A DNA stretch of 64,000 nt, from positions 3,658,001 to 3,722,000 of the forward strand of contig NW_027266284.1 of assembly GCF_022045235.1 (NCBI RefSeq), read 5' to 3'. This document shows positions 10,720 to 13,700 of this stretch, piece by piece. The position numbers were made by a program, and so were the translations under genes. This DNA is from Haliotis cracherodii. Lineage: Eukaryota. Under the pieces are notes generated by a model, which was given only the letters and a program-made list of their open reading frames with translations, searched no databases and was not told the origin of the DNA. Each line of letters begins with the position of its first letter. The stretch's first letter is position 1.

Positions 10720-13700
10720 CTATAGGCCATGGTTCCGTGGTTCCTCCCCTTCTTGCTGTTCATCCTGGATGGAATCAATACCGACCTCCTCGTAGTCCTT
10801 CTCCAGGGCTGCCAAGTCCTCACGGGCCTCGGAGAACTCTCCCCCCTTCATACTCTCACCCATATACCAGTGGACAAAGGCACGCTTGGCATACATCAGG
10901 TCGAGACGAGCCCAGGCCTCGGCGATGGCAGTGGTGTTTGCCAACATGCAGGCGGCTCTCTGGACCTTGGCCAGGTCACCACCGGCGACAACAGTTGACG
11001 GTTGGTCGTTGATACCGACTTTGAAACCAGTGGGAGACCAGTCGACGAACTGAATGGTTCTCTTGGTCTTGATGATGGCGATTGCAGCGTTGATATCTTT
11101 TGGTACGACATCACCAGTGTGACTTCAGCGACAGTCAGCTGCTCGTGGTAGGCCTTCTCCTCGGACATGACTGGGGCGTAGTTGGCCAGAGGGAAGTGGA
11201 TATGTGGGTAGGGCACCAAAGTGGCACCGTCAAATCGGAGAGAGGCAGTGATGGAGCTGACGATCTGACCAATCAGACGGTTTAGGTTGGTATAGGTTGG
11301 TCTTGCAATGTCAAGGTTACGTCTGCAAATATCGTAAATAGCCTCGTTGTCGACTCCAACCTCCTCGTAGTCTTTCTCCAGAGCAGCCAAGTCCTCACGA
11401 GCCTCGGAGAACTCTCTCTCCTCCATACCCTCACCCACGTGCCAGTGGACGAAGGCACGCTTGGCGTACATCAGGTCGAACTTGTGGTCAAGACGAGCCC
11501 AGGCCTCGGCGATAGCTGTGGTGTTGCTCAACATGCAGACGGCTCTCTGGACCTTGGCCAGGTCACCACCGGGGACAACAGGAGAGACCTGTAGAGACCC
11601 GAGGAGCTGGATAGATAGAAAACAAGCTTCGTTCTCTTGACGTAGTCAACGCTGAGGCGCTCAAAAAGCAGTGAAGTGAAGCCGGGGCCAGTGCCACCAC
11701 CTAATCTGTAGAAAATGAGAAACCCCTGCAGTCCAGTGCACTGGTCAGCTAGATTTCTGGCGCGGTCAAGGACGAGTTCAGTGAGCTCCTTGCCCTCTGT
11801 GTAGTGGCAACGGGCGTAGTTGTTGGCGGCGTCCTCCTTGCCGGTAATCAGCTGCACGGGGTGGAACAACTGGTGGTAGGTGCCGGTACGGACCCCATCA
11901 GTTGATTTTTTTGTTAAGCGAATAAAAAATATCAATGTTTAAAAGTCACTTAAACATTATTTCTTAGTAGCGCCAATGGCACATTATTTGCGTCATAAAA
12001 TTGACCAAAATGCCTTTTACACTTCTGAATTAAATTATAAATATCATATCATAGAGTATTAAAGTAATGAAGGTATGACGTCATAGAATCAACAAAGTCT
12101 ATACATCATCCACTAAACACGACACTTACCGACAACAGTGGGTTCGAGGTCGATGAAGAGAGCCCTGGGGGCGTGTTTCCCTGCTCCAGTCTCGCTGAAG
12201 AAGGTGTTGAAGGAGTCGTCCCTATCGCCAAGGATCTTATCCGAGGGCATCTGACCATCATGCTCCAGACAGTACAACTCCCAGCATGCACTGCCTATCT
12301 GACATCCGGCCTGGCCGACGTGGATAGAGATACATTCCCTCTGGAAACAATGAATTAGGTTGAAAAAAACACTATGCGTGAAAAGACCTCTGTAGACCAC
12401 GTGTTCGATGTTGAATTGCGAGTCTATCACAAAATATTAAGAAGGTCAGTGCGCGAATCGAACGAGTAACGCCCCACGAAATAACGAATGTACAGTAATT
12501 CCATTCCGCAGCGAACTTGTGGATAACACATCTGTCCACGTCACCAACGTATATGACTTGACGCCCCGTTTAATGTTTTGCACTTTCAACACAGACGACC
12601 GTTACGTTAGAGACCCGTCGATACCACGTTTCAACCCATCGACAAACTCGCCAGTCGAGAGCGACAAGATGGCCTTCGTTGGAGCAGACATCTGCACACA
12701 GAATTGTGACAGTGATTTAGACAACCTTGTGTGTGAATGGATTCAAACGGATTTTTTTAGTGCAGGACTGCTAACCTGAAATTGTAACATGAAGGGTTAT
12801 GTAAAACCACGTGGGCAGAAATTTGAGACATGTTTTCTTGGTCTAATGGCTCCATAGGTCGTATGAACTGCGCGTGTTTTGTGTTCTCCGCCTCTTGAAC
12901 GTGTATCGGACTGTTTGACACCAGAGGGAAAATGACGCATCCATGCAAAAGCATCTGACTTTGTGAAACTCTTTGACGAAACGATGAATTCATGCTAATA
13001 AGCTTGTATTTACAATGGAAGCCTGGCACAGGAATGAATTGTCAGTTATACATCTTGCCTGTTTGTGTCATGGCCTTTACTACGTAAGTATCTGTTACAT
13101 ACGGAAGCATTTTTGGGCCACTTGTATTTATATATATACTGAACCGCAAAAGAAACGTCAGTATTGATAGATATATGAGAAACCTTATTTGTCCAAACAC
13201 TGTAAACATACTTTGAGACATATTAAAAAGATGATCATCAAGGTTGAAATTAAAGTGTCAAATGTTCTTAAAGTGAAACACAACACCAGTCTCTGAGAAA
13301 AATGGCATCACAAGTCAGTATCTCGTAAGTCCGCCATGTGCATTGATGACTGCCGTGCAACGTCGATCCATGGAATGAATGAGGCGGTTGATGAAGGTTA
13401 TAGGCACTTGAACCCACACTCTGAGGAACGCCTGACGCAGTTCAGATGCAATTGTCGGTCTTGGTCGGACATCATTCAGCCGTATATGGTCCTTACGTGG
13501 ACTTGAAATGCATTGGCTACTTGCCGGGCGGTTTGTCCAGCTTGCAATCGTCCAAGGGCTTGGTGTTGCTGATTTCTTGTCAATCTTGGCATGTGGTAGC
13601 AATTCAATAACGAATGAATGTTATCCGATCTGGGTGGATTTCTATAAGGCAAGAAATGGGGGAACGCATGTGCATTTCAATTTGCACGGAACTCACGTGC

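What the first reader, a model, noticed from the sequence alone, without database searches (positions are those of the whole stretch)
10720..11898. Scrambled pseudogene exon assembled from three paralog types
Seen: in transcript order exon 3 runs codons ~76-179, ~361-438, ~205-292, ~321-450. The inserted 361-438 piece (11582-11349) carries gene-5 signatures (ATGTTGAGCAACACCACAGCTATC = [20 protein letters not shown]). The 205-292 piece carries gene-1 signatures ([15 protein letters not shown]). The first and last pieces are gene-3/4 type (GKEL, KDINAA, AACMLAN, VGIDS). Junctions show microhomology: GTCGAC (11349-11354) joins VGVD to VDNEA, GGTCTCT is duplicated at ~11584-11600, and GAC flanks the HKFD deletion. 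Inference: multi-template switching or conversion repair among paralogs up to 45 kb away and on the opposite strand.
Basis: partly seen in the sequence, partly recalled or inferred. Interest (0 to 1): 0.7.

Follow-up and report, generated by a model that had tools for sequence, protein, structure and literature searches.

The report
Paralog patch in dead tubulin gene
A dead copy of an alpha-tubulin gene carries a 233-base piece that matches the tail of a neighbouring tubulin gene and sits in the wrong place, likely the scar of one sloppy DNA-break repair, a known kind of accident with no sign of a function.

Summary
The scrambled order is real: exon 3 of this alpha-tubulin pseudogene runs codons 76-179, 361-438, 204-292, 320-450. 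But only one piece is out of place. A 233-bp copy of codons 361-438 replaces about 72 bp of native sequence. It is bounded by ACTG (plus a 10-bp local duplication) and GTCGAC microhomologies. It is not a self-duplication (AU p=3.5e-5). Its best match is an intact gene 21.6 kb away, outside the window (5 of 233 mismatches), then gene 5 (7); the two cannot be told apart. The '205-292' piece is in native position and is not a copy of gene 1 (35 of 236 mismatches). It is a patchwork of short tracts, as are the intact genes of this array. Its junction to the last piece is bridged by short-read contigs from two other runs; the insert's own junctions rest on the assembly alone. Best reading: one microhomology-mediated templated insertion into an already dead tandem duplicate, over ordinary gene-conversion mosaicism. 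Known kind of event, no sign of function.

The parts
12130..12340 (-). Relic of alpha-tubulin exon 2 (codons 2-76), with a 12-bp deletion
   Evidence: 15 mismatches over 210 aligned columns to gene 3, 8 of them amino-acid changing
11899..12129 (-). Intron 2, homologous to that of genes 3/4; the pyrimidine tract and AG acceptor are lost
   Evidence: 15-18% mismatch to the gene 3/4 introns; ends without AG
11591..11898 (-). Piece A: native exon 3, codons 76-179, gene-3/4 type, with a 2-bp frameshifting deletion
   Evidence: 32 of 308 mismatches to gene 3; best gene outside the 3/4 pair 53; groups with genes 3/4, support 90
11582..11601 (-). 5' junction: two 10-bp tandem units (CGGGTCTCTA, CAGGTCTCTC) leading into the ACTG microhomology between codons 179 and 361
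   Evidence: CAGGTCTCTACTG occurs at this position in 2 of 38 intact copies, gene 5 being one
11349..11581 (-). Insert: 233-bp out-of-register copy of codons 361-438 from a gene-0/gene-5-type paralog, replacing about 72 bp (codons ~180-203)
   Evidence: 5, 7 and 17 mismatches to gene 0, gene 5 and gene 3; shares no derived change with the pseudogene's own copy; AU test
11349..11354 (-). 3' junction microhomology GTCGAC (donor codons 437-438 = native codons 204-205)
   Evidence: the junction pattern has 1 match in the genome at up to 2 mismatches
11119..11354 (-). Piece B: codons 204-292 in native position, a patchwork of gene-1-like, gene-3/4-like and C21:3593k/3620k-like tracts, with a 30-bp deletion at 11225/11224
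   Evidence: nearest copy differs at 24 of 236 sites
11116..11119 (-). B-C junction: deletion of about 82-84 bp (codons ~292-320)
   Evidence: bridged by one contig each in runs X1 and X8
10742..11116 (-). Piece C: native codons 320-450, gene-3/4 type, with 12-bp (HKFD region) and 6-bp deletions; stop codon lost
   Evidence: 21 of 348 mismatches to gene 3; sister to gene 3, 99/95
10065..10741 (-). 3' flank homologous to the flanks of genes 3 and 4 (tandem-duplicate origin)
   Evidence: 10065-10499 matches 28993-29424 at 89.7%
56212..56444 (+). Candidate donor segment in gene 5. The better-matching candidate, gene 0, lies outside the window at G000:C21:3647508-3647740 (+)
   Evidence: 97% versus 98% identity

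Best explanation
This is a dead tandem duplicate of the gene-3/4 alpha-tubulin lineage in which about 72 bp of exon 3 are replaced by a 233-bp piece matching the 3' end of a neighbouring opposite-strand alpha-tubulin gene, likely patched in during one microhomology-mediated repair of a DNA break. Shown: order of pieces, foreign origin of the insert, microhomologies, disabling lesions, shared introns and flanks. Inferred steps: (1) the gene died first and decayed; (2) a germline break fell in codons ~180-203; (3) the left end primed on a gene-0/5-type template, slipped back 10 nt, paired at ACTG of codon 361 and copied 233 nt; (4) the new strand annealed to the right end at GTCGAC. A cDNA patch from that gene's mRNA would look the same, since the insert lies within one exon. 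Piece B is inferred to be the pseudogene's own middle; its odd affinities would come from the in-register gene conversion that has made the intact genes of this array patchworks too.
For: Foreign insert: 25 of 221 differences from the pseudogene's own copy, none derived and shared; insert+own copy rejected as a clade, p-AU 3.5e-5, insert+own+genes 3/4 p-AU 0.001. Younger than the host: amino acids seen in none of 38 intact copies number 2 of 77 codons in the insert against 25 of 214 in A+C (Fisher p=0.02); the insert has no indel, the other four coding pieces each do. Microhomology 4 bp and 6 bp. B native: collinear position; shares CTA at codon 227 with genes 3/4 only, 2 of 38; decay not different from C (4/77 vs 9/114, p=0.57); in this segment genes 3/4 fall in a 100/99 clade with genes 0 and 5, while in the 3' segment they group with gene 1, which fits overwriting of the 3/4 middle. 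Background patchwork: genes 0 and 5 are identical over exon positions 401-550 but differ at 16-19 per 100 in several windows within 51-350. B-C junction bridged by a 226-bp contig in run X1 and a 141-bp contig in run X8, another organism label.
Against: The insert's two junctions are known only from this assembly. B's decay is also not distinguishable from the insert's (4/77 vs 2/77, p=0.68), so B and the insert could have arrived together. B with genes 3/4 is rejected as a clade (p-AU 0.032), so 'B is native' needs extra conversion events, and its direct support is one nucleotide. The donor is unresolved: gene 0 p-AU 0.43, gene 5 p-AU 0.31, and the free tree puts the insert next to a third gene at weak support. 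Later conversion could have refreshed the insert and made it look young. No repair pathway can be named from sequence alone.
Confidence: 0.7

Rival explanations
1. Insert and B arrived together as one circularly permuted piece: a DNA circle excised between the two GTCGAC sites (codons 204 and 438) of a now missing paralog was opened elsewhere and patched in.
For: The 438-to-204 join is exactly what such a circle would carry; B has no close relative here (at least 24 of 236 mismatches, only 4 private); B and insert have similar low decay (p=0.68).
Against: No gene among 38 joins a B-type middle to an insert-type end; B shares a rare codon with genes 3/4; B carries a 30-bp deletion while the insert has no indel.
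Confidence: 0.1
2. An old internal duplication of the gene's own codons 361-438 was later overwritten by gene conversion from gene 0 or 5.
For: The 3' segment is heavily homogenised in this array, so a 233-bp duplicate would be a conversion target.
Against: The gene's own end reads GGT ATT GAT and offers no GTCGAC microhomology; no trace of own-type alleles remains in the insert.
Confidence: 0.08
3. One reading: one repair event switched among three templates (gene 5, gene 1, gene 3/4 type).
For: B is sister to gene 1 in the segment tree (95/81); a 23-nt pattern hits only gene 1 and B genome-wide; multi-template germline insertions exist in humans (PMC8421209).
Against: B is 15% from gene 1 while the insert is 2% from its best donor; the FPLANYAP tract matches other genes; B is in register and needs no switch.
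Confidence: 0.07
4. Assembly chimera of paralogous reads.
Against: The insert has 4 changes found in neither candidate donor, 2 of them in none of 38 copies; the 5' junction has 9 nt that no paralog supplies in that arrangement; the B-C junction is seen in two other runs; the genome is 1.18 Gb in 80 contigs, which suggests long reads (inference).
Confidence: 0.05

Closest known systems
Class 2 templated sequence insertion polymorphisms (Onozawa and Aplan, PMC5110952; abstract and section 9 read)
   Same: A patch templated from elsewhere, with microdeletion, microhomology and extra junction bases; no target-site duplication, no poly(A).
   Different: The donor is a paralog of the recipient 22-45 kb away, not an unrelated distant sequence; polymorphism and RNA origin are untested.
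MMBIR-type templated insertions in the human germline (Osia et al., PMC8421209; abstract and first part of section 10 read)
   Same: Microhomology or microhomeology at the junctions, local re-copying, heritable.
   Different: Old evolutionary scar in an invertebrate-type gene array; the template is another member of the same gene family.
Template switching during gene conversion in yeast (PMC12891019; abstract and 5 passages read)
   Same: Two jumps into and out of a diverged homologue, a few hundred bases copied, short microhomology at each end, small tandem duplication.
   Different: Those switches need about 200 bp of adjacent homeology; here both jumps are out of register (about 545 bp forward, 700 bp back), beyond the ~80/~40 bp window given for intragenic slips.
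Unprocessed pseudogene in a tandem gene family under patchwork gene conversion (general knowledge, recalled)
   Same: Introns and flanks shared with neighbours, in-register mosaic tracts, progressive decay.
   Different: Carries one out-of-register patch in addition.

Membership tests
Alpha-tubulin gene family | Sequence homology to alpha-tubulin | tested here: met
   Gene 3 exon 3 matches alpha-tubulin chains at E about 1e-250; the pseudogene pieces align to it
Unprocessed pseudogene | Introns and flanks retained from a parent locus | tested here: met
Unprocessed pseudogene | Disabling lesions | tested here: met
   Lost exon-3 acceptor, frameshifts, deletions, lost stop
Unprocessed pseudogene | No functional transcript | not testable with these tools
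   No usable RNA run for this locus
Class 2 TSIP-like templated insertion | Insert templated from another locus | tested here: met
Class 2 TSIP-like templated insertion | Microdeletion, microhomology, extra junction bases | tested here: met
   About 72 bp lost, 4- and 6-bp microhomology, 9 extra nt
Class 2 TSIP-like templated insertion | Polymorphic in the population | tested here: inconclusive
   Contigs of two conspecific-label runs neither showed nor excluded the insert
Class 1 TSIP / LINE-mediated insertion | Target-site duplication on both sides and poly(A) tail | tested here: not met
   The 10-bp duplication lies on the 5' side only; no poly(A)
Yeast-type template switch between homeologues | Long adjacent homeology around the junction microhomology | tested here: not met
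   Junction flanks are different parts of the gene; similarity by inspection is limited to about 7 of 9 nt at the 5' join and 6 nt at the 3' join
Programmed gene scrambling or diversification | Recurrent junctions or multiple scrambled copies | tested here: not met
   The 438-to-205 join has 1 match in the genome; 3 other atypical loci checked are collinear; 38 copies have an open collinear exon 3

The most novel reading that the evidence does not exclude
Insert plus piece B are a fossil of an extrachromosomal DNA circle, cut out of a since-lost alpha-tubulin gene between its two GTCGAC repeats and re-integrated, circularly permuted, into a sister pseudogene: germline circle-mediated exon scrambling guided by family homology.
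Probability: 0.1. Interest if true: 0.45.

Novelty: new member of a known kind. Interest (0 to 1): 0.22.

Why it matters
As it most likely stands it matters little: a clean natural example of a break repaired with an out-of-register patch from a paralog, preserved because the gene was already dead. It is a reminder that in large tandem families segment 'signatures' mostly reflect background gene conversion and need the whole family as control. It would matter more if the circle model held, or if such patches proved frequent, because that is a route to internal domain duplication in multigene families (the 3' join is in frame).

Tried and rejected
Gene 5 as the sole donor: gene 0 fits as well or better. 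Gene 1 as donor of B as a block: rejected on divergence. A hidden B-type gene in this assembly: two diagnostic patterns at 1 mismatch found only gene 1 + B and two cluster genes + B; DNA searches scored 40 of 65, 40 of 43 and 40 of 53 candidates, so the family count is a lower bound. Reads (window 10925-11425, contigs only, 4 runs): the B-C junction was bridged in 2 of 4 runs; X5 and X7 had no cover there, and no piece among the 32 shown of 235 bridged the GTCGAC junction; such holes prove nothing. The 5' junction was not in the stretch laid. The X1 contig passes the 30-bp deletion by only 28 bases, under the 31 needed to count. No RNA holder listed. Other scrambled copies: L045, L046, L047 are collinear. 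Earlier scan findings: none returned. Literature searches listed no paper on this locus or on such a patch in a tubulin pseudogene; the library lacks most subscription papers and no supplements were read. PMC5783719 (abstract only) was not used further; PMC4215184 was seen only in a listing.

Full report
Setting. The window is G000:C21:3658001-3722000 of a 1.18-Gb animal-type genome in 80 contigs. It holds five alpha-tubulin loci: gene 1 (about 3640-5410, minus), the pseudogene (10720-12340, minus), gene 3 (20426-22007, minus), gene 4 (29763-31344, minus) and gene 5 (54947-56489, plus). Gene 3's exon 3 matches alpha-tubulin chains at E about 1e-250. The genome search returned about 40 copies (40 of 65 candidates scored), four more of them in the same cluster left of the window. 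I extracted exon 3 from 38 copies with an open 374-376 aa frame, leaving out the pseudogene itself and three atypical loci (L045, L046, L047).

Observation. Aligned to intact genes, the pseudogene's exon 3 reads A (11898-11591, codons 76-179), 9 extra nt, insert (11581-11349, codons 361-438), B (11354-11119, codons 204-292, 30-bp deletion), an 82-84 bp deletion, and C (from 11116, codons 320-450, 12- and 6-bp deletions). Without the insert, A-B-C is a collinear exon with deletions. So there is one rearrangement: 233 bp in, about 72 bp out.

The host is a dead sister of genes 3/4. It shares their intron 2, upstream region and 3' flank. A and C are nearest to gene 3 (32 of 308, 21 of 348 mismatches) and group with genes 3/4 in trees. 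The exon-3 acceptor is gone, A has a 2-bp deletion and the stop is lost.

The insert is foreign. It differs from the pseudogene's own 361-438 at 25 of 221 sites and shares no derived change with it; holding them together is rejected (p-AU 3.5e-5; the three most distant copies were left out of the trees). Its best match is 'gene 0' at C21:3647508-3647740 (plus strand, 21.6 kb away, exon 3 open) with 5 mismatches, then gene 5 with 7. Neither is rejected as sister. Its ends look gene-5-like (CAGGTCTCT, GGA GTC GAC) and its middle gene-0-like; the two genes exchange sequence, so the donor may be an older allele of either. It is less decayed than the host: 2 of 77 codons with amino acids unseen in the family, against 16 of 100 in A and 9 of 114 in C (p=0.02 against A+C).

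Junctions. At the 3' end the donor's GTC GAC (437-438) is the recipient's GTC GAC (204-205); 15 of 38 copies have this hexamer at 437-438, genes 3/4 do not. At the 5' end a 10-bp unit is repeated and runs into ACTG, shared by codon 179 and codon 361. Random out-of-register joins reach 6 bp in 0.21% and 4 bp in 1.9% of cases (post hoc). There is no flanking target-site duplication and no poly(A). The 438-to-205 join has one match in the genome.

B's nearest copy is C21:3593k at 24 of 236 mismatches; genes 3/4 differ at 33, gene 1 at 35. Its synonymous distance from gene 3 is much higher than that of A+C (24 of about 57 sites vs 21 of about 152; p=2e-5), so its history does differ. In a tree it is sister to gene 1 (95/81) on long branches, and a clade with genes 3/4 or with genes 0/5 is rejected at p-AU 0.032 and 0.046. 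But site by site it is a patchwork: a gene-1-only tract at codons ~218-226, a 26-bp exact run with a CTA codon shared only with genes 3/4, and a tract exact to C21:3593k/3620k. Intact genes show the same patchwork: genes 0 and 5 are identical over exon positions 401-550 and nearly so over 751-1050 yet differ at up to 19 per 100 elsewhere; gene 5 and C21:3593k share 151-400; genes 3/4 approach gene 0 over 501-650. The simplest reading is that B is the pseudogene's own middle and that conversion, partly in genes 3/4 after the split, made it look alien. This is inference; B's decay (4 of 77) fits both C and the insert.

Independent sequence. Six runs of organism A hold 0.53-0.66 of the locus's words and five of organisms B and C 0.24-0.25. 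On 10925-11425, a 226-bp contig of X1 (2 other letters, no gap) and a 141-bp contig of X8 (organism C, 5 other letters) bridge the B-C junction. So the pseudogene and that deletion are real and likely older than the split from organism C. The insert's junctions remain unconfirmed outside the assembly.

Mechanism. Most likely (0.7) a germline break in codons ~180-203 of the dead gene was repaired by microhomology-mediated synthesis on a gene-0/5-type template (DNA, or cDNA of its mRNA), with a 10-nt slip at the start and annealing at GTCGAC at the end. Rivals: a circularly permuted insert+B block from a lost gene (0.1), an old self-duplication later converted (0.08), a three-template event (0.07), misassembly (0.05).

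Comparison. The junction features are those of class 2 templated sequence insertions (PMC5110952, abstract and section 9) and of MMBIR-type germline insertions (PMC8421209, abstract and part of section 10). It works like yeast template switching between diverged homologues but fails its homeology requirement (PMC12891019, abstract and passages). Six literature searches listed nothing on this locus.

Verdict. Real, neatly readable, but one instance of a known repair accident in a pseudogene, on top of ordinary concerted evolution. Interest 0.22.

Noticed in passing
G000:C21:3.59-3.72 Mb (window genes 1, 3, 4, 5; L031-L034): A nine-locus alpha-tubulin cluster whose intact genes are fine-scale patchworks of one another, including between opposite-strand copies about 66 kb apart (genes 0 and 5 identical over 150 bp); the genome holds about 40 copies with further arrays on C56, C9, C2 and C12.
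   Followed up: partly
window 11354 boundary, run X8: A loose end from 2 contigs continues into native codons 197-203 with a Val-to-Phe codon unlike genes 1, 3 and 4; possibly the orthologous pseudogene without the insert. Weak hint from a two-contig consensus.
   Followed up: no
window ~11650-10900, minus strand: Insert and B are joined in frame, leaving a stop-free frame of roughly 250 codons through the junction; no acceptor or expression evidence.
   Followed up: no
L045:3620-4480 (G000:C10, about 2020k): A 5'-truncated, frameshifted alpha-tubulin relic starting near codon 165, with a short insertion near codon 187; collinear.
   Followed up: partly
L046 (G000:C56, about 56262k) and L040 (G000:C5): Alpha-tubulin genes with extra introns inside the region that is one exon elsewhere: at least four in L046, one of about 2 kb in L040.
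   Followed up: no
window 8240-9170, 15500-18950, 25300-26390, 34880-36300, 38050-39090, 49240-51410, 58650-62300: Long low-complexity tandem arrays between the genes, with strong strand skew; the 34.9-36.3 kb and 58.7-62.3 kb arrays are related and inverted.
   Followed up: no
window 31406-31665: An insertion of about 260 bp in gene 4's upstream intron, absent from gene 3 and the pseudogene, with matches at 24770 and 40330-40534; likely a small dispersed repeat.
   Followed up: no
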